From an uncultured Candidatus Saccharibacteria bacterium (lineage in GTDB: Bacteria > Patescibacteriota > Minisyncoccia > Phycocordibacterales > UBA2163): a stretch of 64,000 bases of DNA. Made by a program: the position numbers and the translations under genes. Positions 28,569 through 55,647 of the stretch are shown piece after piece (within the stretch, counting starts at the first letter, position 1; each line of letters starts with the position of its first letter). A model generated the notes under the pieces. It saw nothing but the letters and a program-made list of their open reading frames with translations, did no database searches and was not told where the DNA came from. The DNA is taken from positions 87,643 to 151,642 of the forward strand of contig CAZVGL010000001.1 in NCBI GenBank assembly GCA_964626705.1, read 5' to 3'.

Positions 28569-30884
28569 ATGAAGAGAGTTTTAATATTTTCAACATCATA
28601 TAGCCCTCTTATGGGCGGAGCGGAGGTCGCTTTAAAAGAGATAACAAATCGACTTGGATCGGAGGATTTTTGTATTACTGACACAAAGGACAGTCCTTTG
28701 TCACCACAAAGGACTGTCCTTTGTGGTGAACTTTGCTTTGACATGATTACGATGCGATATGACAAAGCTCTACCTAAGTTTGAAAGTATAGGGAATATAA
28801 ATGTACATAGAGTTTCATCTTCTAAATTATTCTTTCCATTTTTTGCATACTTTAAAGCGCTGAAGCTTCATAGGAAAAACAAATACGACATAGTATGGTC
28901 CATGATGGCAGGTAGGAACGGTTTCGCTAGTTTATTTTTCAAACTTACACATAAGAAAGTTAAATATCTTTTAACTCTACAAGAAGGAGATCGTTTAAGC
29001 TATCCAAAAGAACGTGCAGGGATTCTTTGGTTTGCAGTTGGCGGCTTGTTTAAAAAAGTTTTTACAGAAGCAGATTTTATACAGGTGATTTCTAAATACT
29101 TAGGTCAGTGGGCGCATGACATGGGGTATAGAGGTGAGATAGAGATTGTGCCAAATGGTGCAGATTTAGAAAAGTTTAAGGACGGTGACTCACAAAAAAA
29201 GAATCAAGAATTAAGAAAAGAGTTAGGGATTGGAGAAAATGAAAAAGTGATCATTACAACTTCAAGGCTTGTAGAGAAAAATGCTATCAATGACATTATA
29301 CGGACTCTTACATTTTTGCCTGATAATTATAAATTACTAATAGCTGGTAGGGGGGATCTTTTCTATGAACTTAGAAAACTTACAGATGATCTACAGCTTA
29401 CAAAAAGAGTGTTATTTCTTGGAAATATAGAACATGAGCAATTACCTCAATATTTGCACATTTCTGATGTATTTGTACGCCCATCGCTCTCTGAGGGACT
29501 TGGGATCTCGTTTATTGAGGCTATGGCGGCTTCTGTGCCTGTTATAGCGACCGAAGTAGGCGGAATCACCGATTTCCTTAAAAATGGCAAAACAGGGCTA
29601 TTTTGCGGTATCCATGACCCAAGAGGAATATCTGAGAAAATAGAGCTTTTGATGAAAGATAATACGTTACGTGAGGGTCTTATCAAGAATGCTTTAGAGA
29701 TGGTAGAGAAAACTTATGACTGGAACTTGATAGTAAAAGACATGAAAGAAAAAGTTTTTGATAAGTTTGAAGTAAGAAGAAGTGTTTTAATTACTACAGG
29801 AATATTCCCCCCAGATATCGGTGGGCCTGCTACGTATTCCAAATTGCTTTTAGATAAATTACCAAAACATGAGCTTGATGTAAAAGTGTTAAGTTTTGGT
29901 GAAGTAAGGCACATGCCGAAAATAATTCGGCATGTCGTTTACTTTTTTAAAATTTTAAACAGAAGTAGGGGTGTTGATATTATTTATGCACAAGATCCTG
30001 TAAGTGTAGGTTTTCCGTCTGCTGCTGCATCTTACGTTTTACGAAAGAAGTTTTTACTGAAAGTTGTAGGTGATTATGCATGGGAGCAGTTTAGTGTTGA
30101 AAATAATAATTTTATAACCCCAGAAGAATTTCAGAATGGAAAATATGATTTGAAAACAGAAGTAAGAAGAAAGATTGAACGATGGGTAGGAAATATTGCA
30201 AATAGAATAATCGTACCAAGTAAATACCTCAAAAAAATAGTCTCAATGTGGGAAGTGAAAGAGGAGAAGATACAAGTAATCCATAATGGTATCGTTTTGA
30301 ATAAAGATTATGGAGATAAAGAGACGTTAAGAAAGCTCCTGCAGTTTGAAGGGAATCTTATAATAACAACAGGGAGGCTTGTACCATGGAAAGGTTTTGA
30401 TACATTGATAAAAATCTTCCCAGAGATAAAAAAGAAATTTAAAGATGCTAAACTTATAATAGTTGGTTCTGGTCCACAAATGAATCATTTACAAAAACTT
30501 ATCGATGAAAAAGGCCTTGATGAAGATATAGCTCTAACTGGAAAGCTAGATAATGATTTAGTTATGCGATATAAAAAAGTTTCAGATGTGTTTGTATTAA
30601 ATACAGCTTATGAAGGTATGTCACATCATATACTGGAGGTTATGAATGTTGGTATACCCATAGTTACGACAAATGTTGGTGGTAATCCAGAACTTATTGA
30701 AAACGGAAAAACTGGTTTACTTACTGAGTATAATAATGAAAAAGAATTAGAAAAAGCTATTATAAGGTTATTAGATGATAAAGATTATGGTAACAGGCTT
30801 GCAGGAGAAGCTAAGAAAAAGGTGCAGGAGTTTAGTGAAGAAAGAATGATGGAAGAAACAGCTAATATGTTAAAAACAATATGA
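28569..30884 (+). CDS. Tandem double GT4-family glycosyltransferase (two GT-B modules, 771 aa)
   Basis: There are two EX7E-type GT1/GT4 C-terminal motifs (..SEGLGISFIEAMAASVPVIATEVGG.. and ..EGMSHHILEVMNVGIPIVTTNVGG..). A 42-bp in-frame double palindrome lies at 28683-28724. Confidence 0.8.
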   Translation: MKRVLIFSTSYSPLMGGAEVALKEITNRLGSEDFCITDTKDSPLSPQRTVLCGELCFDMITMRYDKALPKFESIGNINVHRVSSSKLFFPFFAYFKALKLHRKNKYDIVWSMMAGRNGFASLFFKLTHKKVKYLLTLQEGDRLSYPKERAGILWFAVGGLFKKVFTEADFIQVISKYLGQWAHDMGYRGEIEIVPNGADLEKFKDGDSQKKNQELRKELGIGENEKVIITTSRLVEKNAINDIIRTLTFLPDNYKLLIAGRGDLFYELRKLTDDLQLTKRVLFLGNIEHEQLPQYLHISDVFVRPSLSEGLGISFIEAMAASVPVIATEVGGITDFLKNGKTGLFCGIHDPRGISEKIELLMKDNTLREGLIKNALEMVEKTYDWNLIVKDMKEKVFDKFEVRRSVLITTGIFPPDIGGPATYSKLLLDKLPKHELDVKVLSFGEVRHMPKIIRHVVYFFKILNRSRGVDIIYAQDPVSVGFPSAAASYVLRKKFLLKVVGDYAWEQFSVENNNFITPEEFQNGKYDLKTEVRRKIERWVGNIANRIIVPSKYLKKIVSMWEVKEEKIQVIHNGIVLNKDYGDKETLRKLLQFEGNLIITTGRLVPWKGFDTLIKIFPEIKKKFKDAKLIIVGSGPQMNHLQKLIDEKGLDEDIALTGKLDNDLVMRYKKVSDVFVLNTAYEGMSHHILEVMNVGIPIVTTNVGGNPELIENGKTGLLTEYNNEKELEKAIIRLLDDKDYGNRLAGEAKKKVQEFSEERMMEETANMLKTI
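28683..28724. repeat. Two copies of the 19-bp palindrome ACAAAGGAC(A/T)GTCCTTTGT separated by CACC, in frame within the glycosyltransferase gene
   Basis: The sequence is a perfect inverted repeat with no stop codon in any frame. It encodes TKDSPLSPQRTVLC. Confidence 0.9.
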
Positions 30885-31963
30885 GAGTTTTAATGCTCAG
30901 CATAGACAAAAAAATATTTGAAGAAGAGTCTGATGCAAGAGCTCGTATGATAGAGTACGGGGAGCTTTTTGATGAGCTGCATATAGTCGTACATACGAAA
31001 AAAGGGTTTGATAATTCGCAAATATCTTCAAATGTATTTTTGTATCCAACAAACACTATGTCGAAGTTTTTTTATTTTTCTGGTGCATATAAGATATGTA
31101 AAAAGGTTATCGAAAATAATTCCATTGATATAATCACATCTCAAGACGCTTTTACGAACTTAGTTGCAGTTAGGCTAAAAAAGAAATTTAAAAATATTAA
31201 ACTTCAAGTACAAATACATACAGACTTTTTATCTAGAAAGTTTAGAAAAGAATCTATGAAGAATTTTTTTAGATACAAAGGTTATGTTAAGGGTATTAAA
31301 AGTGCAGATTACATTCGTGTAGTGTCAGAGAGTATGAAAAATAAGATAATAAGTAAGTTTGGTATAGAAACTTCAAAGATTGCTGCGCTCCCAATATTTG
31401 TAGACATAGAAAAAATAAAAAATACTACTATTACAGTAGATCTACATAAAAAGTATCCGCAGTTTGAGAAAATCATTCTGATGGCGTCTAGATTAGAGAA
31501 AGAAAAGAACATACAACTTGCAATATCTGCTATGGAAGATGTGGTAGAAAAATATCCAGAAACAGGACTTGTGATAGTTGGAAGTGGAAGTGAGTTAAAA
31601 AATTTAAAGTCTCGAGTATTAAACCTCAAATTACAAGACAATGTAATATTTGAAAGATGGCAAGATAAAGAAATAATTTATTCATATTACAAAACTACAG
31701 ACCTCTTTTTGATAACTTCAGATTATGAAGGGTATGGCCTAACTATAGTAGAAGCATTGGCTTCAAACTTGCCTGTACTTTCTACAGACGTGGGTGTGGC
31801 ACGAGAAGCTGGGGCATATATCACAGAGCGTGACAATTTGGCTCAGAATATAGTTAAATATATTGAAAGCAACCAAAAAACAGTAGAATTAACTAATTAT
31901 CCGTATAAAAACAAGCAAGAATATCTAGATAAATTTAAGCAATCCTTCATATGCGCCTTCTAA
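30881..31963 (+). CDS. GT4-family glycosyltransferase
   Basis: The C-terminal DLFLITSDYEGYGLTIVEALASNLPVLSTDVG is a GT-B motif. Confidence 0.75.
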   Translation: MRVLMLSIDKKIFEEESDARARMIEYGELFDELHIVVHTKKGFDNSQISSNVFLYPTNTMSKFFYFSGAYKICKKVIENNSIDIITSQDAFTNLVAVRLKKKFKNIKLQVQIHTDFLSRKFRKESMKNFFRYKGYVKGIKSADYIRVVSESMKNKIISKFGIETSKIAALPIFVDIEKIKNTTITVDLHKKYPQFEKIILMASRLEKEKNIQLAISAMEDVVEKYPETGLVIVGSGSELKNLKSRVLNLKLQDNVIFERWQDKEIIYSYYKTTDLFLITSDYEGYGLTIVEALASNLPVLSTDVGVAREAGAYITERDNLAQNIVKYIESNQKTVELTNYPYKNKQEYLDKFKQSFICAF

Positions 31964-32997
31964 TAGTTACACAAAAAGTAGACAAGAATGATGATAATCT
32001 TGGTTTTTTTCACCGATGGATTTTAGAGTTTGCAAAGCATTACGAGTTTATAACGATCATTGCACTTGGAGTTGGTGAGTACGATTTACCAGATAATGTT
32101 AAAGTTCTTTCTCTTGGTAAAGAGAGAGGTGCATCAAAGATAGAATATCTTATTAATTTCTATAAATACATCTGGAGTGAGCATAAAAACTACGACGCAG
32201 TATTTGTACATATGAATCCGATCTATGTAGTATTAGGCGGGCTGTTATGGAAGTCTTGGAAGAAAAAGGTAGGACTTTGGTATACGCATAAATCAGTTGA
32301 TACAAAACTTCGTATTGCAGAAGGCTGGGTGGACTATATTTTTACCGCGTCTGATAAAAGTTTTCGTATGCGAAGTAAAAAGCTGCATATAATGGGGCAT
32401 GGGATAGATGCAGACGAATTTAAAGTAAACAAAGGACTGTCCTTTGTCGCTACAAAAGACAGTCCTTTGTTAATATCTAACAAAATAAATATTTTACATA
32501 TTGGACGTATTTCTCGTTCCAAAAATATACATTTATTTGTTAAGTTTGCTGAAATACTAAAAAACAAAGGAGTAAAGTTTCAGATAAATATCGTTGGTGG
32601 TGCAATAACAAAAGAAGATAAAGGATATTTGGAAATATTACAGAAAAATATTTTAAATAAAGAGCTGGCAGAATATTTTAATTTTCTTGGACCTATGGCG
32701 CCACATGAAAGAAGTTTTCGTTTTATAGAAAATGATATTTTTATAAACCTAAGCGATACAGGAAGTATGGATAAGACGGTGCTTGAAGCAATGCTTTCTG
32801 GAATACAAGTCTTGGTGTCAAATGAAGCATTCATGAATATCTTGCCAAGTGAAAACAAAACAACAAAAGATCCAGAAAGGATCGCGAAAGATATACAGCG
32901 GATTATAGGTGTTACACCGAACCCATCTCTGCGAGGATATGTATTAAAAGAACATAATCTTAGTAATTTAATATTAGCAATAGTTAAAACATATTAA
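31951..32997 (+). CDS. GT4-like glycosyltransferase
   Basis: The C-terminal GSMDKTVLEAMLSGIQVLVSNE motif is present. A 42-bp double palindrome lies at 32438-32479. Confidence 0.65.
   Translation: MRLLIVTQKVDKNDDNLGFFHRWILEFAKHYEFITIIALGVGEYDLPDNVKVLSLGKERGASKIEYLINFYKYIWSEHKNYDAVFVHMNPIYVVLGGLLWKSWKKKVGLWYTHKSVDTKLRIAEGWVDYIFTASDKSFRMRSKKLHIMGHGIDADEFKVNKGLSFVATKDSPLLISNKINILHIGRISRSKNIHLFVKFAEILKNKGVKFQINIVGGAITKEDKGYLEILQKNILNKELAEYFNFLGPMAPHERSFRFIENDIFINLSDTGSMDKTVLEAMLSGIQVLVSNEAFMNILPSENKTTKDPERIAKDIQRIIGVTPNPSLRGYVLKEHNLSNLILAIVKTY
32438..32479. repeat. Two copies of the same palindrome family (ACAAAGGACTGTCCTTTGT, CGCT, ACAAAAGACAGTCCTTTGT), in frame within the glycosyltransferase gene
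   Basis: It encodes NKGLSFVATKDSPL. The second copy has one mismatch. Confidence 0.9.
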
Positions 32998-33016
32998 CTT
33001 TGGTATATTTAACATC

Positions 33017-34120
33017 ATGAAAATAGGTATTATAGTCGAGCCATATGAAGAGCAAAATACGTCAGGTATTTCGTATTCTATTTTAAGTCAAACAAAAGGT
33101 CTTTTAGAGTTGGATCATGAAAATGAGTATATTATATATACATCAAAACCGTTTAAGAAAGAGCGTCTTAGTGGGAATGCAAGGAATATACTTGTTCCAA
33201 AGTCGTTTCTCGGAAAGAATCTTTGGTTCTTAAAAAACAGCTTTTTCAACAAATCTGTTGTACCTGATGTGCTTATCTTTAACATGCCACTTTTGCCACT
33301 CGTGTTACCAAAGAGCATTAAGACAGTGCCGATATTTCTTGAGCTTGTTTATAAGGCGCCAAAGGGTTTGAGTTTGAAAAGAAAGATCCTGATGGTAATA
33401 CAAAAATCTTTCGTTGCATCTGCAATAAAAAGAGCAATATTTATAGTTACACCATCAAATGCTACAAGAAACGACCTGTTAAGTTATTATAGAGGTGTAG
33501 ATGAAAATAAAGTTAAGAATATTTATATAGGCTTTCATACTCTTGATGGGTATGATGATGAATCTCGGCTCGATGAATTAAAAGACCCATACTTTTTGTT
33601 TATAGGTAGAGTAAAGTTTAAGAAAAATGTACACAATATGATCGAAGGTTTTATAATCTTCAAGGGTAAATACAAAACAGATCATAAATTTTATTTGGCA
33701 GGACTTTCAGATGGTAAATACAAAAAAGACCTTGAAGAAAGAGCGAAAAAGAGTGGTATAGAGAAAGATCTCATTTTTGGAGGGTTTGTATCAGATAGTG
33801 ATAAGTATCGTTTATATAAAAATACCGATGCATTAGTTTTCTCTACACTAAAAGAAGGGTTTGGTATGCCTGTAATTGAGGCAATGAGCCTGGGTGCACC
33901 TGTTATCACATCTAACAGGCCACCGCTAAATGAGATATCAAACAATGCTGCAATGTTGGTTGATCCAGAGAATCCAGAAGATATTGCAAAAGCAATGAGT
34001 GAGATAGTTATGAATAATGATTTACGAGAAGAGCTTATAAAAAGAGGAAAAGAAAATGCGAAACTATTTTCTTGGGAAAAGCATGCAGAGGGACTATTTA
34101 ATATAATTAAATCTATTTAA
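33017..34120 (+). CDS. GT4-family glycosyltransferase
   Basis: KEGFGMPVIEAMSLGAPVITSNRPPLNEI. Confidence 0.78.
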   Translation: MKIGIIVEPYEEQNTSGISYSILSQTKGLLELDHENEYIIYTSKPFKKERLSGNARNILVPKSFLGKNLWFLKNSFFNKSVVPDVLIFNMPLLPLVLPKSIKTVPIFLELVYKAPKGLSLKRKILMVIQKSFVASAIKRAIFIVTPSNATRNDLLSYYRGVDENKVKNIYIGFHTLDGYDDESRLDELKDPYFLFIGRVKFKKNVHNMIEGFIIFKGKYKTDHKFYLAGLSDGKYKKDLEERAKKSGIEKDLIFGGFVSDSDKYRLYKNTDALVFSTLKEGFGMPVIEAMSLGAPVITSNRPPLNEISNNAAMLVDPENPEDIAKAMSEIVMNNDLREELIKRGKENAKLFSWEKHAEGLFNIIKSI

Positions 34121-34121
34121 T

Positions 34122-34727
34122 ATGAAAAAAGAATCTTGGACAGAAAAAATATATACACGAAATGGTATTAAGAGAGACGACATACTCTCTGGTTTAAAAG
34201 TTATTGATATAGGGTGTGGACATCATAAGTTTCCACAGTCGACAGGTATAGATGTCGTAAAAGAGTCTGGAGCGGATATCATACATAATGCAGAAGATAC
34301 GCCATGGCCTATTGAGGATAATTCATATGATCTAGTTTTTACTAATCACTTTCTTGAACATTTAGATAATCAGTTAGAGTTTTTTGAAGAAGTAACCCGC
34401 ATCTTAAAGCCAGGGGGTAGGATTATTGTACAAGTGCCGTACTTTCGTCATATAGATGCATATACCGACATCACACATAAGCGATTCTTTACATCACGTA
34501 CTTTGGATTACTTTTTGGTTGAATCTAAGCGTTCCGGATATCATTACAGTAAGTCTCTTTTCACAAAAATAGGGTTCTGGCATGGTTGGCCGTCCAGATC
34601 AAACAATCCTTTGGTGCGTCTTTTTAAATGGTTTATTATGCGACACTATCGTTTCTATGATCAATATTTGTCACTTTTATTGCCTGTACCGTGTTTAACT
34701 TGGGAGTTAGAGGTTATAAAGAATTAG
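34122..34727 (+). CDS. Class I SAM-dependent methyltransferase
   Basis: Motif I VIDIGCGHH and post-I LKPGGRIIVQVP. Confidence 0.75.
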   Translation: MKKESWTEKIYTRNGIKRDDILSGLKVIDIGCGHHKFPQSTGIDVVKESGADIIHNAEDTPWPIEDNSYDLVFTNHFLEHLDNQLEFFEEVTRILKPGGRIIVQVPYFRHIDAYTDITHKRFFTSRTLDYFLVESKRSGYHYSKSLFTKIGFWHGWPSRSNNPLVRLFKWFIMRHYRFYDQYLSLLLPVPCLTWELEVIKN

Positions 34728-34732
34728 CTATT

Positions 34733-35824
34733 ATGAGTGACGATCAAAAAAGAAAAATATTATCTATATATGTTCCAAAACATTTAGTTAAAAAAGGATT
34801 ACGTTACTCGACACTCCTATATCCTTTTTGGGGTGTATGGCAAAAAGCTGAATCACATATTCAGACTGCGATGTTTAAGCAAAACAATTTTGATCCGAGC
34901 TATTATTCAATAGTGGAAGACCCTACCGTGGCTGATTATGTTTTTATGCCACATAATTATTGGACTCTTTTAAAAAAACACCCTGAGCTTATACAAGAGT
35001 ATGTAAAAGAGGCAAAGAAGTATGATAAGCCACTTCTAATAGATGCAATAGGGGATAAGATGGATATCATTAATATATCAAACTCTGTTGTATTGCGTTA
35101 TGCATATTATAAAAGTAAGTTAAAAGAAAGTGATGTTATAGTCCCTGTTTTTACTGAGGATTTGCTAGCTTCATATAAAGAAGGAAAGCTTGCAATACGA
35201 GATAAGAGAGAGCGTCCAAGTGTTGGTTTTACTGGTTGGGCATCACTGCCTTTCTTTAAATATCCAAAGACTCATATAAAAGATTTACCGTTATTTATTT
35301 TGAGTTTTTTTACTTCGAAGTTTAACATGTACAGAAAAGGAGTTATCTTACGTAGTAGAGCTTTAAAGATACTTGAATCATCAAAAAGTATTGATACAAA
35401 TTTTATTTACAGAAATTCATTTTCTGGAAATACTGCAACAGCGCAGAAAGATATAGTTACTTTACGTAAAGAGTTTGTTGATAATATTTTTGATTCTGAT
35501 TACACCCTTTGTATAAGAGGGGACGCAAACCAATCAACCAGGTTTTTTGAGACGCTAAATTTAGGACGAATACCGTTTTTTGTTGATACAGATATTGTGT
35601 TGCCATTAGAGAACATAATTAATTACAAAGAGTTTTGTATATACATGGACTATCGTGATATAAAAAGCGTTACTAAAGTTTTAACTGATTTTCACAGATC
35701 TGTATCCTTCGAGAAGTTTAAAGATATGCAAATAAAGGCTAGAGAAACTTATGACAAATACCTCCGAATGGACGTATATACTAAATATTTAATGGAAGAA
35801 CTAAAAGAAAAAGTAAGGTCTTAA
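34733..35824 (+). CDS. Exostosin (GT47)-like glycosyltransferase
   Basis: The C-terminal TLCIRGDANQSTRFFETLNLGRIPFFVDTDIVLPLE matches the exostosin signature C-x-RG..S.R..E.L..G.IPV...D...LPF. The start is uncertain: the ORF track begins at 34691, overlapping the upstream gene, and I chose the Met at 34733. Confidence 0.5.
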   Translation: MSDDQKRKILSIYVPKHLVKKGLRYSTLLYPFWGVWQKAESHIQTAMFKQNNFDPSYYSIVEDPTVADYVFMPHNYWTLLKKHPELIQEYVKEAKKYDKPLLIDAIGDKMDIINISNSVVLRYAYYKSKLKESDVIVPVFTEDLLASYKEGKLAIRDKRERPSVGFTGWASLPFFKYPKTHIKDLPLFILSFFTSKFNMYRKGVILRSRALKILESSKSIDTNFIYRNSFSGNTATAQKDIVTLRKEFVDNIFDSDYTLCIRGDANQSTRFFETLNLGRIPFFVDTDIVLPLENIINYKEFCIYMDYRDIKSVTKVLTDFHRSVSFEKFKDMQIKARETYDKYLRMDVYTKYLMEELKEKVRS

Positions 35825-35938: not shown

Positions 35939-37408
35939 ATGGATAAAAGAATTTGTCTTGTAATACCACCAGCAGCATTCCTCCTTAGTCAGAGGGTGTT
36001 CATGTATCTTGGAATATTAAAGATAGCAGCTGTGCTTGAGAAAGCAGAATGGAAAGTAGAAATGCTAGATCTTTCTGGCATAAGTAATTTCAATGAAGTT
36101 GCGATAGAGCATGCAAAAACTTCCAAAGCTAAGATTTTTGGATTCACTGCCACAACTGCACAGGTTCCTGTAATTATTGATATTGTAAATGCAATAAAAA
36201 CAGTTAGACCAGATATAAAAACAATCCTTGGTGGTCCTCACGTTGCGATAACATATGCAGCTTACAAAGCTTACAAAGCTGGAAAAGATGGAGTCAACAA
36301 CAGGACTGTAAAAGAAATGGGAGAGCTTAAAGATTCATTCGACACTGTAATCGCAGGGGATGGAGAAAAGGCAATTTTTGAAGCAATTAAACCAGACGCG
36401 CCTAAGATCATAGACGCAGATGACGTTGACTCAAGTCTTTTTCTTACAAGTGAAGAATTAAATTCTTTGCCGTTTCCGGCAAGGCATCTTATCGATGTAG
36501 ATACTTATAAGTATTCGATAGATGGAGTGTCTGCATTGTCACTTATCTCTCAGCTAGGGTGCCCGTTTAATTGTAGTTTCTGTGGAGGAAGAAAATCTCC
36601 AATGTTACGTAAGACAAGAGAGCGTACACCAGAGAATGTTGTTGAAGAAATGGTTCACATGTATAAAACTTTTGGACGTAAAGGTTTTATGTTCTATGAC
36701 GATGAGCTTAATGTGAGTAAGCAAATGACTCATCTAATGAACCTAATCGCTTTAAAACAAGAAGAGCTTGGAGTAAAGTGGTGTCTTCGCGGTTTTATCA
36801 AATCCCATCTTTTTACAGAAGAACAAGCTCGTGTGATGTACAAAGCTGGTTTCAGATGGATCTTAGTTGGTTTTGAATCAGGTTCACCTAAAATATTGGA
36901 AGCTATTAATAAAAGAGCTACATGTGAGCAGAATACACGATGTATTGAAATCGCTCATAAGTATGGACTCAAGGTTAAAGCTCTTATGTCAGTAGGTCAT
37001 CCTGGGGAATCTATTGAAACAATAGAGGATACAAAGGATTGGATCTTAAAGGTAAAACCAGACGACGTTGATTTTTCTTTAATAGCCCCATTTCCAGGTA
37101 CTGAGTATTATGATCAAGCTGTTTTAGAAGAAGATGTATGGGTATACGTTTGTAAGAAGACAAATGGGAGGCTTTATCAGACTGTAAGTGCTGAGAATTC
37201 AGGATTTTATAAAGGTAAACCAGGTCAATATAAGTCTTGTGTTTATACTGACCAAATGTCTTCTACCGAACTAGTTGTGGCGCGTGATGAAATAGAGAAT
37301 AAGATTCGTGAAGAATTGAATCTCCAGTTTAACCCAAGTGCTGCAGCTAAAATGTATGACCATTCTATGGGACAGTTACCAACTTTTATTCTCCGAACAA
37401 CAAATTAA
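35939..37408 (+). CDS. B12-binding-domain radical SAM enzyme (class B)
   Basis: CPFNCSFCGG is the CxxxCxxC motif. There is an N-terminal Rossmann-like B12-binding region. The RBS AAAGGAGAAGGGGG is present. Confidence 0.85.
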   Translation: MDKRICLVIPPAAFLLSQRVFMYLGILKIAAVLEKAEWKVEMLDLSGISNFNEVAIEHAKTSKAKIFGFTATTAQVPVIIDIVNAIKTVRPDIKTILGGPHVAITYAAYKAYKAGKDGVNNRTVKEMGELKDSFDTVIAGDGEKAIFEAIKPDAPKIIDADDVDSSLFLTSEELNSLPFPARHLIDVDTYKYSIDGVSALSLISQLGCPFNCSFCGGRKSPMLRKTRERTPENVVEEMVHMYKTFGRKGFMFYDDELNVSKQMTHLMNLIALKQEELGVKWCLRGFIKSHLFTEEQARVMYKAGFRWILVGFESGSPKILEAINKRATCEQNTRCIEIAHKYGLKVKALMSVGHPGESIETIEDTKDWILKVKPDDVDFSLIAPFPGTEYYDQAVLEEDVWVYVCKKTNGRLYQTVSAENSGFYKGKPGQYKSCVYTDQMSSTELVVARDEIENKIREELNLQFNPSAAAKMYDHSMGQLPTFILRTTN

Positions 37409-48217: not shown

Positions 48218-48223
48218 ATATTC

Positions 48224-49477
48224 TTATTCTACCAGATTATTTATTTTAAGCTGTTCTATAAAATCTTTTACTCTATGAAATGTCGTATGACTTTCAAACA
48301 CTTCACTCTGGGCTATTAAAGCACGCTCTATACCAATATCTGGATTATTTATAATCATTTCAAAATATTTTCTATATTCTTTTGGATTTTTAGCTACGAA
48401 CAGTGCTTTTTCTGAAAATAGTTTTGGTAGTATCTTTGCGTCGTCTATGATTTGTGGGACACCACATGCAGCAAGTTGGTATGTGCGTTCATTTACTTCA
48501 CACGCGGTATTTATTTGTTCTTCTAGATGTATATTTAATCCTATTTTACTTCGTGCGTAGACATATCTATCTCTGTCACGATTAAAATTAAAGTCTTTGA
48601 TTTGTTTCCAACCAGGTCCATCAATTAGTCCAGAATACTTTGAAACAATTGGAAGCATGTACTTAATATATCGCTTTGCTTTTGATTTGTTTGTAGATGC
48701 AATAAATGCATAGTTTGTATCTTTTTCTGTATCTGGAATAGTGTAGTAGTGAAGTATATTTGCACCAAAAGGTATAGATAAGGCCTTATAGCCAGCTTCA
48801 AAGAATGGTTTATATTCTTTTTGGGTATTTGTATAATCAATATCGCGGTAGTTGTAGTAAAAGCTAATTTTATGTTCTTTCGCCCAAATCAAGCGCTCTT
48901 TAAGCGGGGGATTGTTGTTTTCAGGAGATGCTGTTAGTCCTATACTTAGTTTATTGTTTTCTCTATATTTTGCTATAGCATCCCAATCAATCCTCTCAAG
49001 GTATGCTCTATAGTCGCTGGTTATAAATACATTTGGTTTAAATTCATCAAGAGCTTGTTTGGTGGAATCGTCCCAGCCGAGTATCCTCGTTGGTATCCCT
49101 ATAAACTTAAAACTCTCTGCGAAATTTGTAAAAAGTGAAAAACCTGCAGGTGATGAGTTTGACTCTGGAACATGAATAAGTATCCTTACATTACTTTTTC
49201 CAAGTAAGATATCTTTAAACTCTTTTTCTATTTTTTGTTTTAATTCATAGCCTTGTCTTACAAGTGGGTCATCGCTATTTAAATATAATTCTTCTTTTTC
49301 AAGAATGTCTTTCTTTTTAAGATTGTCTTCTGCTGTCCGTAATACTTCTTTGCGATTCAGCCACGTATTCTTATTGATTTTGCTTTCAAATGCAAACATA
49401 AACCAAAACGGATCTGGTTTACCTATAATTTTTTTTATAAAGTGTTTTATAAATCTTATGTTGTATTCAACGTTCAT
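48224..49477 (-). CDS. CgeB/DUF3880-like GT-B-fold protein (putative glycosyltransferase)
   Basis: The C-terminal EVNERTYQLAACGVPQIIDD is an EX7E-like motif; length 417 aa. Confidence 0.4.
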   Translation of the reverse strand: MNVEYNIRFIKHFIKKIIGKPDPFWFMFAFESKINKNTWLNRKEVLRTAEDNLKKKDILEKEELYLNSDDPLVRQGYELKQKIEKEFKDILLGKSNVRILIHVPESNSSPAGFSLFTNFAESFKFIGIPTRILGWDDSTKQALDEFKPNVFITSDYRAYLERIDWDAIAKYRENNKLSIGLTASPENNNPPLKERLIWAKEHKISFYYNYRDIDYTNTQKEYKPFFEAGYKALSIPFGANILHYYTIPDTEKDTNYAFIASTNKSKAKRYIKYMLPIVSKYSGLIDGPGWKQIKDFNFNRDRDRYVYARSKIGLNIHLEEQINTACEVNERTYQLAACGVPQIIDDAKILPKLFSEKALFVAKNPKEYRKYFEMIINNPDIGIERALIAQSEVFESHTTFHRVKDFIEQLKINNLVE

Positions 49478-49482
49478 ATTTT

Positions 49483-51300
49483 TTACTCCTTATTTATTCT
49501 ATGAAAATACGAATCTTTGTTTTTTAACATTTCAGAAGGTTTTCCGATTTCAACAATTCTATTTTTATCTATCACAGCAAGACTGTCAGCATTCTTAACT
49601 GTTGATGGACGATGAGCTATTATTATGACAGTTAATTTCCCACGTAGATTCTCTATAGTTTCTAATATGAGCGCTTGAGACTCATTATCAAGTGCACTTG
49701 TTGCTTCATCTAACACAAGTATCTTTGGATTACGTGCCAAGATCCTTGCAAGGACAATACGTTGACGTTGTCCTCCTGAGAGCCTTGTTCCACGTTCTCC
49801 CACCATTGTATCAAGCCCTTCATCTAGTGATTTAATAAAGTCGTGAATATTTGCCATTTCCATAGCACGATTCACATCTTCGTCGCTTATATCTTCAGAG
49901 TAAAAGGTTATGTTATTACGAACAGTGTCGTTTAGAAGAAAGATATCTTGTGATACATATCCTATGTTTTCCCGCCATTCTTTTGTATTGATCTCGCGTA
50001 TATCAGTCTTATCAAGAAGGATTTTTCCAGATTCTGGTTCTATAAGTCTTAGTAGTAGATCTACAATAGTTGTTTTTCCAGACCCAGATGGCCCAACAAT
50101 ACCAGTTATCTCACCTTTTTTTACAGTAAGGTTTATGTTTTGGAGAGCAGGGTCTTTTTTGTGATAAGAGAAAGACACATCTTCAAATGTTATAGCGTCA
50201 CTGAGTTTAAAAGGAGTTGTTCCAGTATTTTTTTCTTTATTTATTTTTGTTTCTTCTTCATACTCCATAACAGTTTTTAAAAATGGGTAGTGTTCATTTA
50301 GTGTATGAAGTTGCCCTTGCCCTTGTTGTATATAAGCAAATATTTTATTGATGGAATATATGACCACAGCAAAAGTCGCAAATGCAAATCCCGCAGTAGT
50401 GTGAGAAAATGCAAATAGAATAAGTATCAAAAGTATAGCGATAGGTTGCATTGCAGCGTTCGTAAAGATTGAGAGAGTTGCTATTTGTATTGTCAGCTTC
50501 TTCCATTTTTCAAATATATTTTGTGCTTTATCTGCAATCTTGTCTTCAACAGACATTGCTTTAAGTGTTTTTATTCCTGTCATGCTTTCGTTTATAAGGT
50601 TTGAACCTTCTTTCATCACTAGACCGCTCTTATGTGCAGTAGCTCTTGAACGATGCACTAGTGGCTTGAATACAAAAAACATGACTCCTCCTGCAGAGAG
50701 TGTGGCTATTGTGATAATGACTGAGATATTAAGAGCTATGGTGCTGTATATGATCACATTTACAGCAAGGATCACTATGCCAGTAGTTAGGTTAAGAAGC
50801 ACTGCTCCGGAGTTAATGTCATAAGAGAGTATTTTCTCAAGATGTCCAATGCGTTGTTTGGAAAGGTACGTCCATGAAGCGTTCAGTGTGTGGTTAAGTA
50901 GTCTGACTCTTGTCTCTTTTACATATGAATTCATGATGTTCTCGGTAATATATCTAGAGAAAAAAGTCGCAAATGCTTTAAATATAAAAATTATTGCGAT
51001 AAATATCAAAACATAATTTAATGCAAAAGGTATGTGGAATACGTCAAATACACCACTGATTGTTTTAGTGATTATGTTTGTTGAAGCACCACCGTCTTCA
51101 GCAAGAAAAGAGAAAAGAGGAATGATAGCTGTTATCCCGATACCTTCTAGTATACCACTTAGAAAACCAAGCCCTAAAAGGACTATTATTTTTTTTCTAT
51201 ATCCGGCAAAAGCTTTGTTTGTAAGACGAAATATCGCAATGAAGCGATTCTCGGCGAAAAATCCACCTTTATTTTTTTGTTTTGTTATAGTAGTTTCCAC
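49483..51300 (-). CDS. ABC exporter, fused TMD-NBD (MsbA/PglK-like; candidate lipid-linked glycan flippase)
   Basis: Six N-terminal TM helices, Walker A GPSGSGKTT, signature LSGGQRQRIVLAR and Walker B ILVLDEATSALD. Confidence 0.9.
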   Translation of the reverse strand: METTITKQKNKGGFFAENRFIAIFRLTNKAFAGYRKKIIVLLGLGFLSGILEGIGITAIIPLFSFLAEDGGASTNIITKTISGVFDVFHIPFALNYVLIFIAIIFIFKAFATFFSRYITENIMNSYVKETRVRLLNHTLNASWTYLSKQRIGHLEKILSYDINSGAVLLNLTTGIVILAVNVIIYSTIALNISVIITIATLSAGGVMFFVFKPLVHRSRATAHKSGLVMKEGSNLINESMTGIKTLKAMSVEDKIADKAQNIFEKWKKLTIQIATLSIFTNAAMQPIAILLILILFAFSHTTAGFAFATFAVVIYSINKIFAYIQQGQGQLHTLNEHYPFLKTVMEYEEETKINKEKNTGTTPFKLSDAITFEDVSFSYHKKDPALQNINLTVKKGEITGIVGPSGSGKTTIVDLLLRLIEPESGKILLDKTDIREINTKEWRENIGYVSQDIFLLNDTVRNNITFYSEDISDEDVNRAMEMANIHDFIKSLDEGLDTMVGERGTRLSGGQRQRIVLARILARNPKILVLDEATSALDNESQALILETIENLRGKLTVIIIAHRPSTVKNADSLAVIDKNRIVEIGKPSEMLKNKDSYFHRINKE

Positions 51301-51499
51301 GTTTTTATATACTGTGTATTATAGTTGAAATTCAAGAAAATACCCAGCTTTATACTACCTGATATAACTACTTGTATGTAAATATGTTTCTTGACAAGCC
51401 AGTATTAATATGTTAATTTCCCTTCAGTTAGTCCGTCACAAAAGTGGCTTTTACATACAGTCGAAACATTTATTTTGAAAAAAAGAGGAGGATTAATTA

Positions 51500-52246
51500 A
51501 TGGAAAATGGTGTTATTTTAGTAACGACAGTTTCTGGAAAAAGTCTCGATGAATTAAGAATAAAGCTTGCGTTGAAGATGATAGGTGAAGTGGTAAAGCA
51601 TGGTTATAGGATTGTCGTAGTTGATGGTTCGCCGATTGATAGTGATATAGATGATGCATTAAAAAGTGCTGGCTGTGGTCTGATTCACTATGAACGTGAA
51701 ATTAAAAAAGGTATGGGAGCTTCACGACGACAGTGTATTAGGAAAGCTCTTGAGTTAGGTGCGAAGATCGTGATATGGCTTGAACCGGAGAAATACACAG
51801 TAGTACAGTATCTCGCTAAGTGCGTTGAAGTAATGCTGGAAGATGGTTATGATATCGTTGTACCATTTAGAGAGACTCTGGACTCATATCCAGATTATCA
51901 ACACTCGTCCGAATTGCGTGCCAGTAGGGAGATAGGAAGTATCATTGGAAGACATGATCTAGATACAATGTTTGGTCCGAGGGTTATGAGTAGAAAAGCG
52001 GCAGAATTATTTTTAAATTATGTCGGCGAAGAAGGTTACGATAACTGGGAAATACTCTTTATCCCAATTCTCTGGGCGATCAGAGACGGTATGAGTATCG
52101 GTTCCTGCGTTACCACTTATGTTCATCCGCCAGAACAGACTAAAGCTGAACAAGGGGATGAGTGGAATAGCAAGAGAGACAAGCAGCGCAGAAACATTGT
52201 AAAAACACTAAAAGCGGAAGCAAACAAGTGCGGAGCCCTTGCATGA
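51500..52246 (+). CDS. Divergent GT-A-fold (GT2-like) protein, hypothetical
   Basis: RIVVVDGSPIDSD and KGMGASRRQCIRKALELGAKIVIWLEPE resemble the GT2 core with EPE in place of DxD. Strong RBS AGAGGAGG. GC content is visibly higher than in neighbouring genes. Confidence 0.4.
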   Translation: MENGVILVTTVSGKSLDELRIKLALKMIGEVVKHGYRIVVVDGSPIDSDIDDALKSAGCGLIHYEREIKKGMGASRRQCIRKALELGAKIVIWLEPEKYTVVQYLAKCVEVMLEDGYDIVVPFRETLDSYPDYQHSSELRASREIGSIIGRHDLDTMFGPRVMSRKAAELFLNYVGEEGYDNWEILFIPILWAIRDGMSIGSCVTTYVHPPEQTKAEQGDEWNSKRDKQRRNIVKTLKAEANKCGALA

Positions 52247-52286
52247 GTTCTTTTAAGTTTTTAAATCAAAGTGGTATATAGAATAG

Positions 52287-52327
52287 GTCGCGAATTTCCA
52301 GTTGTATTTGGAAATTCGCGATTTTTT
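52287..52327. terminator. Bidirectional terminator between the 51500 gene and gmd
   Basis: TCGCGAATTTCCAG-TTGTAT-TTGGAAATTCGCGA followed by TTTTTT. Confidence 0.8.
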
Positions 52328-52342
52328 GTAGAAATATTTTTA

Positions 52343-53338
52343 TTATTTTATATTATGCACTTTCAAATCATCTTCAACCATGATTTTTACCAAGTCATCA
52401 AACTTTGTTTTTGGTTCCCATTTAAGTTTTTCTTTTGCTTTAGATATATCTGCAATAAGTGCATCAACTTCTGTTGGTCTGTAATAGCGTGAATCAATCT
52501 CTACATAATCTTCCCAATTAGAGATACCTACATGTTTAAAGGCTGTCTCAACAAACTCTTTTACAGAGTGCGCTTCACCCGTCCCTATAACATAGTCATC
52601 AGGTTCTTCTTGTTGAAGCATAAGCCATGCAGCCTCCATGTATTCAGGAGCATAACCCCAGTCACGACGAGCATCTAGGTTTCCAAGATATATTTTCTTA
52701 TCAAGACCTGCTTTTATGCGAGCTACACTTCGGGTTATTTTTTTTGTTACGAAGGTTTCACCGCGTCTTTCGCTTTCGTGGTTAAAAAGTATCCCATTCA
52801 CTGCAAATATACCGTAAGCTTCTCTGTAGTTTACTGTTGTATGATATGCGAAAACTTTTGCGCAACCGTACGGACTTCTTGGATGAAATACAGTGCTTTC
52901 ATTTTGTGGAGGTTTGGATGAGCCAAACATCTCACTTGATGACGCCTGATAAAACTTAATTTTTTTATCAGTCTGTTCTTGAAAATCTTTTATAGCTTCT
53001 AATATGCGGATTGTCCCAAGGCCTGTTATGTCAGATGTGTACTCTGGAGCGTCAAAAGATATCCTCACATGTGATTGTGCGCCAAGGTTATATATTTCAT
53101 CTGGTTTAATATCAAAAATCAACTTTCTTATATTTCCTGCATCTGAAAGATCACCATAGTGGAGAATAAACCGTGCATTTTCGATGTGCGGATCTTGGAA
53201 TAAATGATCAATCCTTTTTGTATTAAAAGTACTTGCACGACGAATAATCCCATGCACTTCGTAACCTTTTCCTAATAGGATTTCAGATAAATATGATCCA
53301 TCTTGTCCTGTAATTCCTGTAATTAGTGCTTTTTTCAT
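52343..53338 (-). CDS. gmd: GDP-mannose 4,6-dehydratase
   Basis: The N-terminus [33 protein letters not shown] is a GMD hallmark; length 331 aa. Confidence 0.93.
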
Positions 53339-53430
53339 ATGATGCTTAATATAACCACAAGTATATCAGGTTAGTTTCTAATACCAAACGTAAATTTGTG
53401 AGACTTATATATAGTGCTATAATATTCAGA

Positions 53431-55647: not shown

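What the first reader, a model, noticed from the sequence alone, without database searches (positions are those of the whole stretch)
28569..55647. A ~27-kb surface-glycan synthesis and export island next to pilin and surface-protein genes, possibly a protein O-glycosylation system
The island holds at least 13 glycosyltransferases from GT4, GT2, GT11 and GT47-like families, plus CgeB-like and GT-A-like enzymes. It also holds three class I SAM methyltransferases, a B12-radical SAM enzyme, GDP-deoxyhexose genes, an MsbA/PglK-like ABC exporter and a Wzy_C-family membrane protein with TPR repeats. It contains no Wzx/Wzz/Wza genes and no typical LPS or teichoic-acid genes. Wzy_C proteins include the PglL/PilO O-oligosaccharyltransferases that glycosylate type IV pilins. 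This window carries a minor-pilin cluster (677-3454) and a large LamG/FN3 surface protein at 55869. One coherent hypothesis is therefore an ABC-transporter-dependent glycan assembled on a lipid carrier, methylated and possibly C-methylated by the radical SAM enzyme, flipped by the ABC exporter and transferred to pilins or surface proteins. The island begins immediately after the truncated ribosomal operon.
Basis: inference. Interest (0 to 1): 0.72.

Follow-up and report, generated by a model that had tools for sequence, protein, structure and literature searches.

The report
Variable surface-glycan locus, conserved WaaL-like ligase
A 27-kb gene cluster in an ultra-small Patescibacteria bacterium encodes the parts needed to build a complex methylated, deoxy-sugar surface glycan, export it with an ABC pump and pass it to a WaaL-like ligase; related species keep that ligase at the same chromosomal spot but swap the sugar genes, much like O-antigen serotype loci, and the proposed link to pilin or protein glycosylation remains unproven.

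Summary
Bases 28569-55647 hold 14 glycosyltransferase proteins: 9 GT4 (one with two GT4 modules), GT47-like, GT2, GT11, CgeB-like and a weak GT-A-like. They also hold 3 SAM methyltransferases, a B12-radical-SAM enzyme, a GDP-colitose/fucose cassette (GMD, ColD with its catalytic His, ColC/Fcl-like), a fused MsbA/PglK-type ABC exporter and a 738-aa Wzy_C+TPR protein. No priming phosphoglycosyl transferase, Wzx, Wzz or Wza gene is present.

Across 84 Paceibacteria species this gene sits at a fixed position before murB-secA. The cluster upstream is hypervariable and uses one of three mutually exclusive exporters: Wzx, fused ABC or Wzm/Wzt. This argues against a Wzy polymerase and for an export-route-independent ligase acting on a conserved acceptor.

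A protein acceptor is plausible because the monoderm S-layer O-oligosaccharyltransferase WsfB has the same Wzy_C+TPR layout. It is unproven: the PglL_A motif is absent, and pilin or LamG genes are linked in only 1/84 loci each. This is a new variant of a known kind, of moderate interest.

The parts
28099..28158 (.). Left boundary: perfect 30+30-nt palindrome (intrinsic-terminator-like) right after ribosomal protein L5
28569..30884 (+). Two-module GT4 glycosyltransferase (771 aa), first gene of the + strand operon
   Evidence: Glycos_transf_1 2.5e-81 in two stretches. The two modules are 31% identical to each other.
30881..31963 (+). GT4 glycosyltransferase
31951..32997 (+). GT4 glycosyltransferase (divergent)
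   Evidence: 1.7e-11
33017..34120 (+). GT4 glycosyltransferase
34122..34727 (+). Class I SAM methyltransferase
34691..35824 (+). GT47 (exostosin)-like glycosyltransferase
   Evidence: PF03016 1.4e-13. A GT47-like gene also occurs in the related locus L007.
35939..37408 (+). B12-binding radical SAM enzyme (class B-like), substrate unknown
   Evidence: In NCBIfam all equivalog hits are far below their cut-offs.
37487..38563 (+). GT4 glycosyltransferase
38569..39183 (+). Class I SAM methyltransferase
39180..40271 (+). GT4 glycosyltransferase
40264..40914 (+). Class I SAM methyltransferase
   Evidence: It is 42% identical to the methyltransferase at 38569 over 89 aa.
40916..42034 (+). GT4 glycosyltransferase
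42009..43271 (+). GT4 glycosyltransferase
43273..44304 (+). GT4 glycosyltransferase, last gene of the + strand operon
44284..45246 (-). GT2 glycosyltransferase (TuaG/EpsE-like), last gene of the - strand operon
45231..46097 (-). GT11 (alpha-1,2-fucosyl/colitosyl-type) transferase
   Evidence: PF01531 4.8e-31
46101..47303 (-). ColD-type GDP-4-keto-6-deoxymannose 3-dehydratase
   Evidence: best PDB match ColD 2GMS at 1.4e-56, with His retained at the His188 position. RfbH-like.
47282..48217 (-). GDP-L-colitose synthase (ColC) / GDP-L-fucose synthase (Fcl)-like reductase-epimerase; overlaps colD by 22 nt
   Evidence: Fcl model 475 bits, cut-off 500
48224..49477 (-). CgeB-like (Glyco_trans_1_2) glycosyltransferase
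49483..51300 (-). Fused TMD-NBD ABC exporter (HepA/MsbA/PglK-like), inferred flippase for the lipid-linked glycan
   Evidence: Orthologues lie next to Wzy_C-TPR in 10 species and are mutually exclusive with Wzx and Wzm/Wzt.
51500..52246 (+). Weak GT-A-like protein (248 aa)
   Evidence: GT2 23.0 bits against a cut-off of 23.3
52343..53338 (-). GDP-mannose 4,6-dehydratase (GMD)
   Evidence: equivalog cut-off met, 528 bits
53431..55647 (+). Conserved WaaL-fold (Wzy_C / CAZy GT121-like) ligase: 12-TM core, 13th TM and an extracytoplasmic helical/TPR domain. This is a backbone gene, not part of the variable island.
55869..57728 (+). Secreted LamG/FN3 protein with a Thr/Ser/Pro-rich linker. It is adjacent but not shown to belong, and is not conserved at this position in relatives.
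   Evidence: A LamG hit occurs in 1 of 84 loci.

Best explanation
The region is this organism's version of a hypervariable surface-glycan locus that Paceibacteria (Parcubacteria/OD1, Patescibacteria) keep at a fixed chromosomal site, next to a conserved WaaL-fold ligase.

Inferred pathway:
1. A phosphoglycosyl transferase encoded elsewhere primes a polyprenyl phosphate.
2. About 15 distinct soluble or peripheral glycosyltransferase modules build a large, non-repetitive or adaptor-plus-repeat heteroglycan on the cytoplasmic face.
3. GMD, ColD and ColC/Fcl supply GDP-colitose and/or GDP-fucose, which the GT11 enzyme adds.
4. Three methyltransferases, and possibly the B12-radical-SAM enzyme, decorate or cap the glycan.
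5. The fused MsbA/PglK-type ABC exporter flips the finished lipid-linked glycan.
6. The Wzy_C-TPR protein binds the polyprenyl-PP donor through R227 and R301, activates an acceptor hydroxyl through H348, and transfers the glycan en bloc to an extracytoplasmic acceptor that is conserved across the class.

I consider a protein the most likely acceptor (S-layer or other secreted surface proteins, recruited by the external TPR domain), as in the monoderm S-layer O-glycosylation systems. That step is inference.

Shown here: gene content, the fold and catalytic residues of the ligase, its topology, its conserved position, and the variability of the locus with three alternative exporters. Inferred: carrier lipid, order of steps, glycan composition and acceptor.
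For: - Gene content.
- Catalytic residues: R227, R289, R301 and H348 are invariant in 85/85 species-level orthologues. They align with E. coli WaaL R215/R288/H338. Their spacing of 74/47 is close to the 74/48 of C. metallidurans WaaL R191/R265/H313 (PMC10920833).
- Ligase versus polymerase signature: His at the acceptor-activating position is the O-antigen-ligase signature, whereas the polymerase families of the same clan carry Asp or Glu there (PMC10920833).
- Topology: N-terminus inside, 13 TM helices, C-terminal TPR domain outside, consistent with the positive-inside rule.
- Downstream context: 84 orthologous loci from different species were examined. secA lies downstream in 48 of 53 and murB in 31 of 53.
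- Upstream context: of 67 loci with at least 6 kb upstream, 26 have Wzx, 10 a fused ABC exporter and 8 a Wzt-like ABC protein. These never co-occur. The Wzt-like class was confirmed by Pfam as Wzm plus Wzt with a Wzt_C domain in the two loci tested (L020 and L035).
- Variability: one species whose ligase is 80% identical carries NeuB/NeuC/NeuA genes instead. Another at 80% has the same backbone without the colitose cassette.
- Carrier chemistry: a WcaJ-type phosphoglycosyl transferase lies directly upstream of the ligase in 4 loci and about 3 kb upstream in a fifth, which supports polyprenyl-PP chemistry.
- Architecture precedent: the predicted S-layer O-oligosaccharyltransferase WsfB and PglL are reported to carry a C-terminal TPR motif, and those systems use ABC export plus methyl capping (PMC2943079).
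Against: - There is no direct evidence for any acceptor.
- The PglL_A motif (PF15864) is absent.
- No candidate target gene is conserved next to the ligase.
- No priming enzyme lies in the window, so the carrier chemistry is inferred from relatives.
- WaaL and TacL, the characterised members nearest in fold or by analogy, transfer to lipids.
- TPR domains also occur in polysaccharide export machinery, so the TPR domain is not specific for protein acceptors.
- In 23 of 67 loci no exporter was detected with my seed sequences.
- In L017 the ligase follows the ribosomal operon with no glycan genes within 10 kb. The ligase can therefore be separated from a glycan cluster.
Confidence: 0.55

Rival explanations
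1. The Wzy_C-TPR protein is a WaaL/TacL-type ligase that transfers the exported glycan to a membrane glycolipid. The product would be a lipoglycan, analogous to O-antigen on lipid A-core or to pneumococcal lipoteichoic acid, rather than a glycoprotein.
For: - The closest solved structure by far is WaaL, and the catalytic residues are the same.
- TacL, a Wzy_C protein of a monoderm, ligates an Und-PP-linked polymer to a glycolipid (PMC5727136).
- High conservation of the external loops fits a single conserved acceptor (the reasoning follows PMC10920833).
Against: - WaaL and TacL are about 400 aa and lack the extra TM helix and the 250-aa external TPR domain (PMC5727136).
- No glycolipid-anchor synthesis genes appear in the window or in the loci with Pfam tables from the look-up of encoding contigs (L005-L008).
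- Patescibacteria are generally thought to lack de novo lipid synthesis (general knowledge, not tested here).
Confidence: 0.22
2. The ligase attaches the glycan to peptidoglycan or lipid II. It would then fill, by glycosyl transfer, the role that LCP phosphotransferases play in Firmicutes and Actinobacteria.
For: - The acceptor appears conserved across the class, and peptidoglycan is the most conserved envelope component.
- murB lies downstream in 31 of 53 loci.
- CAZy authors have speculated that GT121 members in Gram-positives may link polysaccharide to peptidoglycan (PMC10920833).
Against: - No Wzy_C enzyme has been shown to use peptidoglycan as acceptor.
- The neighbourhood with murB and secA may simply be conserved synteny in reduced genomes.
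- The acceptor-activating residue is His, as in ligases, not the Asp of SEDS proteins (PMC10920833).
Confidence: 0.1
3. The Wzy_C-TPR protein is a Wzy-type repeat-unit polymerase for the island's glycan.
For: - Pfam Wzy_C also covers some polymerases.
- 26 of 67 related loci have a Wzx flippase next to it.
Against: - It co-occurs with Wzm/Wzt and with fused ABC exporters, pathways in which polymerisation is cytoplasmic.
- It is 39-80% identical across species whose glycan genes differ completely, whereas polymerases are the most variable class (PMC10920833).
- It has an invariant His where clan GT-C1 polymerases have Asp or Glu (PMC10920833).
- Its top structural hit is WaaL.
Confidence: 0.03
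4. The island makes a free or loosely attached exopolysaccharide or capsule. The neighbouring Wzy_C-TPR gene would be a conserved housekeeping gene with an unrelated role, and its adjacency would be only positional.
For: - The ligase is a backbone gene with conserved murB-secA synteny.
- In L017 it has no glycan genes within 10 kb upstream.
- In 11 of 67 loci my seeds detected no glycan-gene hits upstream. At least one of these, L010, does carry glycan genes by Pfam, so this count is an overestimate.
Against: - 56 of 67 loci have glycan genes upstream.
- The exporter gene is often immediately adjacent and divergent, with gaps from -58 to +100 bp in many loci.
- In 4 loci a priming phosphoglycosyl transferase directly abuts the ligase gene.
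- In the window the ligase is transcribed divergently from gmd, with a 92-bp intergenic region.
Confidence: 0.1

Closest known systems
S-layer protein O-glycosylation (slg) clusters of Geobacillus stearothermophilus NRS 2004/3a and Paenibacillus alvei CCM 2051T (WsaB/WsfB)
   Same: - Monoderm envelope.
- Glycan assembled on a lipid carrier by soluble glycosyltransferases, including multi-domain enzymes.
- Methyltransferase decoration or capping.
- ABC-transporter export.
- Final transfer by a Wzy_C-domain enzyme. WsfB carries a C-terminal TPR motif, and WsaB has a TPR protein encoded next to it (PMC2943079).
   Different: - Those clusters use Wzm/Wzt. The window uses a fused MsbA/PglK-type exporter, although 8 related loci have a Wzt-like ABC protein, confirmed by Pfam as Wzm/Wzt in the two tested.
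- Those clusters encode their priming enzyme (WsaP/WsfP) and lie near the S-layer gene. Neither is seen here.
- The sugars differ: rhamnan there, a colitose/fucose cassette here.
- No acceptor is known here.
WaaL O-antigen ligase (CAZy GT121; Cupriavidus metallidurans structures 7TPG/7TPJ) with its O-antigen locus
   Same: - A long external loop carrying two Arg and one His.
- Works downstream of either Wzx- or ABC-type export.
- A conserved enzyme paired with hypervariable donor-glycan loci.
   Different: - There is no lipid A-core in this lineage.
- The protein is 738 aa, with an added 13th TM helix and a 250-aa external TPR domain.
- Conservation is much higher (39-80% identity across candidate phyla) than among WaaL proteins.
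- The ligase gene lies directly beside the variable locus.
PglL/PilO(TfpO)-type O-oligosaccharyltransferases of Neisseria, Acinetobacter and Pseudomonas
   Same: - Wzy_C domain with the same Arg/Arg/His residues (PMC3643930).
- Relaxed donor specificity would fit the variable loci.
- An extra C-terminal extracytoplasmic region.
   Different: - The PglL_A motif (PF15864) is not detected.
- There is no conserved adjacent pilin or target gene.
- Those systems are in diderms.
TacL lipoteichoic-acid ligase of Streptococcus pneumoniae
   Same: A Wzy_C enzyme in a monoderm that ligates a flipped Und-PP-linked polymer to its final acceptor (PMC5727136).
   Different: TacL is 397 aa without a TPR domain. 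Its acceptor is a glycolipid and its donor is a single conserved teichoic acid.
E. coli O8/O9a polymannan O-antigen pathway (WbdA/WbdD, Wzm/Wzt) and C. jejuni PglK
   Same: - A multi-module GT4 enzyme.
- Methyltransferases that could cap the chain.
- ABC-dependent export. The PglK-type fused exporter flips a complete lipid-linked oligosaccharide.
   Different: - The window has no Wzm/Wzt.
- The exporter scores 238 bits against the PglK equivalog cut-off of 1000.
- All nine GT4 proteins are mutually divergent (21-31% identity). This points to a complex heteroglycan rather than a homopolymer.

Membership tests
O-antigen ligase family (Pfam Wzy_C PF04932 / CAZy GT121) | Significant match to the Wzy_C profile | tested here: met
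   2e-20, 73.6 bits (cut-off 31.7), residues 224-378 of the 749-aa ORF
O-antigen ligase family (Pfam Wzy_C PF04932 / CAZy GT121) | 12-TM GT-C_B fold with a long extracytoplasmic loop between TM9 and TM10 | tested here: met
   [not shown]
O-antigen ligase family (Pfam Wzy_C PF04932 / CAZy GT121) | Two Arg that bind the Und-PP phosphates and a His that activates the acceptor | tested here: met
   R227, R301 and H348 are invariant in 85/85 orthologues. They align with E. coli WaaL R215/R288/H338. The H-N-x9-G-x2-G motif is present.
O-antigen ligase family (Pfam Wzy_C PF04932 / CAZy GT121) | Transfers glycan from Und-PP to lipid A-core | not testable with these tools
   No LPS genes are in the window. 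The acceptor is unknown.
PglL-type protein O-oligosaccharyltransferase | PglL_A motif (Pfam PF15864), which separates PglL from WaaL (PMC3643930) | tested here: not met
   It is not among the Pfam hits at E<=0.01, nor among the precomputed Pfam domains of 120 homologues.
PglL-type protein O-oligosaccharyltransferase | Gene adjacent to its target protein gene (pilin or other) | tested here: not met
   A pilin-like ORF lies within 10 kb in 1 of 84 loci. A LamG homologue occurs in 1 of 84 loci.
PglL-type protein O-oligosaccharyltransferase | Demonstrated en bloc transfer to Ser/Thr of a protein | not testable with these tools
   This needs glycoproteomics or heterologous reconstitution.
Wzy repeat-unit polymerase (BP-Pol) | Asp or Glu at the acceptor-activating position (clan GT-C1), high sequence variability, and use only in Wzx-dependent loci | tested here: not met
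   His is invariant at that position. Identity is 39-80% across species with different glycan genes. The gene co-occurs with Wzm/Wzt and with fused ABC exporters.
Monoderm S-layer glycosylation (slg) cluster | Wzy_C transferase with or next to a TPR module, plus ABC export, plus a methyltransferase | tested here: met
   comparison with PMC2943079
Monoderm S-layer glycosylation (slg) cluster | Cluster-encoded priming Gal-1-P transferase, and linkage to an S-layer structural gene | tested here: not met
   No phosphoglycosyl transferase was found in the window, and no S-layer gene was recognised.
GDP-L-colitose pathway (GMD, ColD, ColC) | GMD equivalog | tested here: met
   527.7 bits, cut-off 415
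GDP-L-colitose pathway (GMD, ColD, ColC) | ColD: a PMP-dependent 3-dehydratase with His replacing the aminotransferase Lys | tested here: met
   best PDB match ColD 2GMS at 1.4e-56. The query motif AHH aligns to ColD SHH (His188). The criterion comes from PMC8987622.
GDP-L-colitose pathway (GMD, ColD, ColC) | ColC as distinct from Fcl | tested here: inconclusive
   the Fcl model scores 475 bits, just under its cut-off of 500. The 22-nt overlap with colD suggests ColC, but no ColC-specific model was available.
PglK / MsbA-type lipid-linked-glycan ABC flippase | Fused TMD-NBD half-transporter of the exporter type | tested here: met
   ABC_membrane plus ABC_tran; about six TM segments.
PglK / MsbA-type lipid-linked-glycan ABC flippase | Equivalog-level match to PglK, MsbA or HepA | tested here: not met
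   HepA 355 against 725; MsbA 321 against 602; PglK 238 against 1000

The most novel reading that the evidence does not exclude
The Wzy_C-TPR protein is a lineage-wide, export-route-independent WaaL-fold ligase that attaches a hypervariable, serotype-like glycan to peptidoglycan or lipid II. This would be a new acceptor class for the family. It would make the locus the functional equivalent of an O-antigen system in ultra-small monoderm episymbionts, and would replace LCP-type wall-polymer ligases.
Probability: 0.1. Interest if true: 0.85.

Novelty: new variant of a known kind. Interest (0 to 1): 0.5.

Why it matters
- Patescibacteria (CPR) live attached to other microbes, and almost nothing is known about their surface chemistry.
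- This analysis shows that a whole class, with at least 594 species matched in the genome scan, keeps one highly conserved WaaL-fold ligase with an external TPR domain at a fixed locus.
- The adjacent glycan genes and even the export mode are reshuffled between close relatives.
- That is the genomic signature of diversifying selection on a surface antigen, as expected from pressure by phage, host recognition or immune evasion.
- It gives a concrete, testable handle, one conserved enzyme with three catalytic residues, for finding out what CPR cells display on their surface and what it is attached to.
- The gene cluster itself is an ordinary kind of glycan locus.

Tried and rejected
- hhalign of the family profile against single-sequence E. 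coli WaaL gave a negligible probability (0.6%), although the three catalytic residues aligned. I use it only for residue correspondence.
- phmmer with E. coli WaaL, WzyE, WbbH and WzxE found nothing in the window or the loci, because these families are too divergent.
- I tested whether Wzx-type loci carry an extra polytopic membrane protein, a candidate separate Wzy, more often than ABC-type loci. The result was 9/26 against 2/18. This is suggestive but not conclusive, and the extra proteins were not identified.
- A search for a priming enzyme in the window was negative by Pfam on all ORFs of at least 100 aa, by phmmer with WecA and WcaJ, and by hydropathy.
- No tRNA genes, Rfam families or flanking direct repeats mark the island as a mobile insertion.
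- The GT4 genes are not recent duplicates (21-31% identity). I therefore dropped the idea of a tandemly amplified GT-MT module that makes a poly-O-methyl homopolymer.
- Literature searches found no description of this CPR protein family or locus. Pilin glycosylation in Saccharibacteria has only been predicted, not shown (PMC11623550).
- I did not use the second structure job, the third fold search or the representative-library search. None would discriminate between the candidate acceptors.


Full report
**Observation**

The plus-strand operon runs from 28569 to 44304. In order it encodes:
- a 771-aa protein with two GT4 modules
- three further GT4 enzymes
- a methyltransferase
- a GT47-like enzyme
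- a B12-binding radical SAM protein
- then GT4, methyltransferase, GT4, methyltransferase, GT4, GT4, GT4

A convergent minus-strand operon runs from 51300 to 44284. It encodes a fused ABC exporter, a CgeB-like transferase, an Fcl/ColC-like enzyme, a DegT-family enzyme, GT11 and GT2. After it come a weak GT-A-like gene (51500-52246, +), GMD (53338-52343, -) and the Wzy_C+TPR gene, which is transcribed divergently from GMD.

That makes 14 glycosyltransferase proteins with about 15 catalytic modules. The GT4 proteins are only 21-31% identical to each other. They are distinct enzymes, not recent duplicates.

The Wzy_C gene most probably starts at ATG 53431 (738 aa). Its orthologues and the database entry start there. 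The overlapping antisense ORF has no family hit.

Only two polytopic membrane proteins lie in the island: the exporter and the Wzy_C protein. The window contains no Wzx, Wzz, Wza, LPS or teichoic-acid families and no priming phosphoglycosyl transferase.

**Sugar-nucleotide cassette**

- GMD passes its equivalog cut-off.
- The DegT-family protein matches E. coli O55 ColD best among solved structures (1.4e-56). The CDP-hexose 3-dehydratase E1 and the perosamine synthases score lower.
- It carries His where aminotransferases have the catalytic Lys. The query motif AHH aligns to ColD SHH, whose first His is His188. This substitution is the hallmark of 3-dehydratases (PMC8987622).
- The gene upstream of it in the operon overlaps it by 22 nt. 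It scores 475 bits against the GDP-fucose synthase model, just below the cut-off of 500. That is what a ColC paralogue would be expected to do, but ColC and Fcl could not be separated.
- Together with the adjacent GT11 gene, the cassette predicts terminal colitose and/or fucose.
- The roles of the three methyltransferases and the radical SAM enzyme (O-methylation, capping, C-methylation) are inferred only.

**The Wzy_C-TPR protein**

An AlphaFold2 model built on 36 orthologues is confident (pLDDT 84.8, pTM 0.81).

- Architecture. The model has the 12-TM WaaL core with the long external loop between TM9 and TM10. It then has a low-confidence basic cytoplasmic linker, a 13th TM helix (449-485) and a helical/TPR domain (492-733).
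- Topology. The positive-inside distribution of Lys and Arg fits an N-in, C-out topology. The TPR domain is therefore on the same extracytoplasmic side as the catalytic loop.
- Catalytic residues. R227, R289, R301 and H348 are invariant in all 85 species-level sequences. R227, R301 and H348 align with E. coli WaaL R215, R288 and H338. Their spacing of 74/47 is close to the 74/48 of C. metallidurans WaaL R191/R265/H313. In WaaL the two Arg bind the Und-PP phosphates and the His activates the acceptor (PMC10920833; PMC3643930).
- Ligase versus polymerase. In the same clan, Wzy-type polymerases and SEDS proteins carry Asp or Glu at the His position (PMC10920833). The His therefore favours a ligase-type enzyme.

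It does not distinguish protein-directed from lipid-directed ligases.

**Comparative context**

This part changes the picture. The membrane domain has more than 6,000 database homologues. The best 120 are proteins of about 725 aa with the same Wzy_C+TPR layout. Where a source names them they are from Patescibacteria (Paceibacteria, Kaiserbacteria), and they are 50-80% identical to the query.

I kept 80 loci and added four from contig look-ups.

- Downstream, the neighbourhood is conserved. secA is present in 48 of 53 loci with enough sequence and murB in 31 of 53, often followed by gatB.
- Upstream, 56 of 67 loci carry glycan-synthesis genes, but the content differs from species to species.
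- A species whose ligase is 80% identical (L010) has a nonulosonic-acid cassette instead (NeuB, NeuC, CMP-transferase), with methyltransferases and a deacetylase.
- Another species at 80% (L009) has the same GT4-GT4-GT4 / GT2-GT11-CgeB-ABC backbone as the window but lacks GMD, ColD, ColC and the GT-A-like gene.
- The export gene next to the ligase takes three mutually exclusive forms. A Wzx-type flippase occurs in 26 loci. A fused ABC exporter orthologous to the window's occurs in 10 (phmmer scores of about 450-1080). A Wzt-like ABC protein of about 425 aa occurs in 8. Pfam on the two such loci tested (L020 and L035) confirmed Wzm plus Wzt with its Wzt_C carbohydrate-binding domain.
- A WcaJ/WbaP-type priming transferase lies directly upstream of the ligase in 4 loci and about 3 kb upstream in a fifth.

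**What this means**

- a hypervariable cassette (28569-53338);
- a conserved backbone gene (53431-55647).

A Wzy polymerase is effectively excluded, for three reasons. The enzyme accompanies Wzm/Wzt and fused ABC exporters, whose substrates are completed in the cytoplasm. It stays conserved while the donor glycans change. It has the ligase-type His.

The pattern of variable donors, one conserved enzyme and very conserved external loops is what is expected for a ligase with one conserved acceptor. That reasoning is set out in PMC10920833. It mirrors the relationship between WaaL and O-antigen loci in diderms.

The window's organism uses the fused ABC route. The exporter is only a distant relative of HepA, MsbA and PglK and falls below all equivalog cut-offs. 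Its role as flippase rests on position and on mutual exclusivity with the other exporters.

**The acceptor**

For a protein acceptor:
- Among characterised or predicted Wzy_C enzymes, the ones with extra extracytoplasmic C-terminal modules are O-oligosaccharyltransferases.
- The review of S-layer glycosylation reports a C-terminal TPR motif in Paenibacillus WsfB and in PglL, and a TPR protein encoded next to Geobacillus WsaB.
- Those systems are monoderm, ABC-dependent and methyl-capped (PMC2943079).

Against it, or neutral:
- The PglL-specific PglL_A motif is absent.
- The LamG/FN3 neighbour has a homologue in 1 of 84 loci.
- A pilin-like ORF lies within 10 kb in 1 of 84 loci.
- The window's own pilin cluster is 50 kb away.
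- TPR domains also occur in polysaccharide secretion systems.

The lipid-acceptor rival has real precedent in monoderms. TacL is a 397-aa Wzy_C protein that ligates teichoic acid to a glycolipid (PMC5727136).

A peptidoglycan or lipid II acceptor is speculative. It is not excluded, given the conserved acceptor, the murB neighbour and the fold relationship to SEDS proteins.

My estimates are about 0.4 for protein, 0.2 for lipid and 0.1 for peptidoglycan. The remainder goes to other or no linkage.

**Boundaries and origin**

- The ribosomal str-S10-spc gene series ends after L5, at a perfect 30+30-nt palindromic terminator.
- A 70-aa Cys-rich ORF and a second hairpin lie before the island.
- In one related species (L017) the intact spc operon (S8 through SecY, Adk, Map and Ndk) runs straight into the Wzy_C-TPR gene, with no glycan genes between. 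The ribosomal operon and the ligase-secA block are therefore neighbours in at least two lineages, and the glycan cassette occupies the gap. In the window's genome the distal half of the spc operon must lie elsewhere.
- No tRNA genes, flanking direct repeats or mobile-element genes mark the island.
- Island GC is somewhat lower than the flanks: 0.30-0.36 against 0.37-0.41.

**Novelty and verdict**

The gene cluster is a normal member of the lipid-linked glycan-locus kind. Databases already label the ligase family "O-antigen ligase family protein".

I could not find three things described in the literature searched:
- a 13-TM WaaL-fold ligase with an external TPR domain that is conserved across the whole class;
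- its fixed chromosomal position;
- the O-antigen-like turnover of the adjacent cassette, with three interchangeable export routes.

I rate it a new variant of a known kind, with moderate interest (0.5). The protein O-glycosylation reading is plausible but undemonstrated, and the specific link to pilins is not supported by gene neighbourhood.

Noticed in passing
window 27551-28158; L017 1367-9627: The spc ribosomal operon stops after L5, at a perfect 30+30-nt palindromic terminator. S14 to SecY are not in the window. In related locus L017 the intact operon (S8, L6, L18, S5, L15, SecY, Adk, Map, Ndk) directly precedes the Wzy_C-TPR gene.
   Followed up: partly
window 28233-28445: A 70-aa Cys-rich ORF (7 Cys) with a GGAGG ribosome-binding site lies between the L5 terminator and a second hairpin (28470-28510). 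Its function is unknown, and it was not scanned against any family library.
   Followed up: no
window 58995-59264; also L005 13709-13936, L006 12795-13034, L008, L010, L012, L013, L015, L017: An extremely basic 89-aa ORF made of Lys/Arg/Ala/Pro repeats (histone-H1-like composition) lies just upstream of secA. Similar ORFs occur at the same position in at least eight other species.
   Followed up: partly
window 55869-57728: The LamG/FN3 protein has a signal peptide and a Thr/Ser/Pro-rich linker (residues about 273-300). Such a segment would suit O-glycosylation. The gene is not conserved next to the ligase in relatives.
   Followed up: partly
L003 12439-16216: In one assembly of the same species the LamG/FN3 gene is truncated to 421 aa. 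It is followed by different genes (an HGTP_anticodon-domain protein, possibly a tRNA synthetase, and a signal peptidase) instead of murB-secA. This is either a strain-level rearrangement or a misassembly.
   Followed up: no
L009 277-12163: A species whose ligase is 80% identical has the same island backbone but lacks GMD, ColD, ColC and the GT-A-like gene. It has two other small genes between the CgeB-like gene and the ABC exporter. The colitose module therefore behaves as a separable cassette.
   Followed up: partly
L011 2801-3589 and 7647-8457: The GT11 and Fcl-like genes appear split into fragments in a Campbellbacteria genome. These are either pseudogenes or sequencing frameshifts.
   Followed up: no
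window 17123-18583: A CitMHS-family transporter gene lies on the opposite strand, between fusA (EF-G) and tuf (EF-Tu), and interrupts the str operon.
   Followed up: no
window 55620-55647 (protein residues 725-738): The C-terminal tail of the ligase (...KEIxAGRNP) is nearly invariant among the 36 closest orthologues. It is less conserved, or missing, in the wider 85-sequence set.
   Followed up: partly
L029, L034, L075, L082 (adjacent); L052 (about 3 kb upstream): A WcaJ/WbaP-type phosphoglycosyl transferase gene directly abuts the Wzy_C-TPR gene on the opposite strand in four species, and lies about 3 kb upstream on the same strand in L052. The window has none.
   Followed up: partly
window 28000-54000: Island GC content (0.30-0.36) is lower than that of the flanking ribosomal and secA regions (0.37-0.41).
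   Followed up: no
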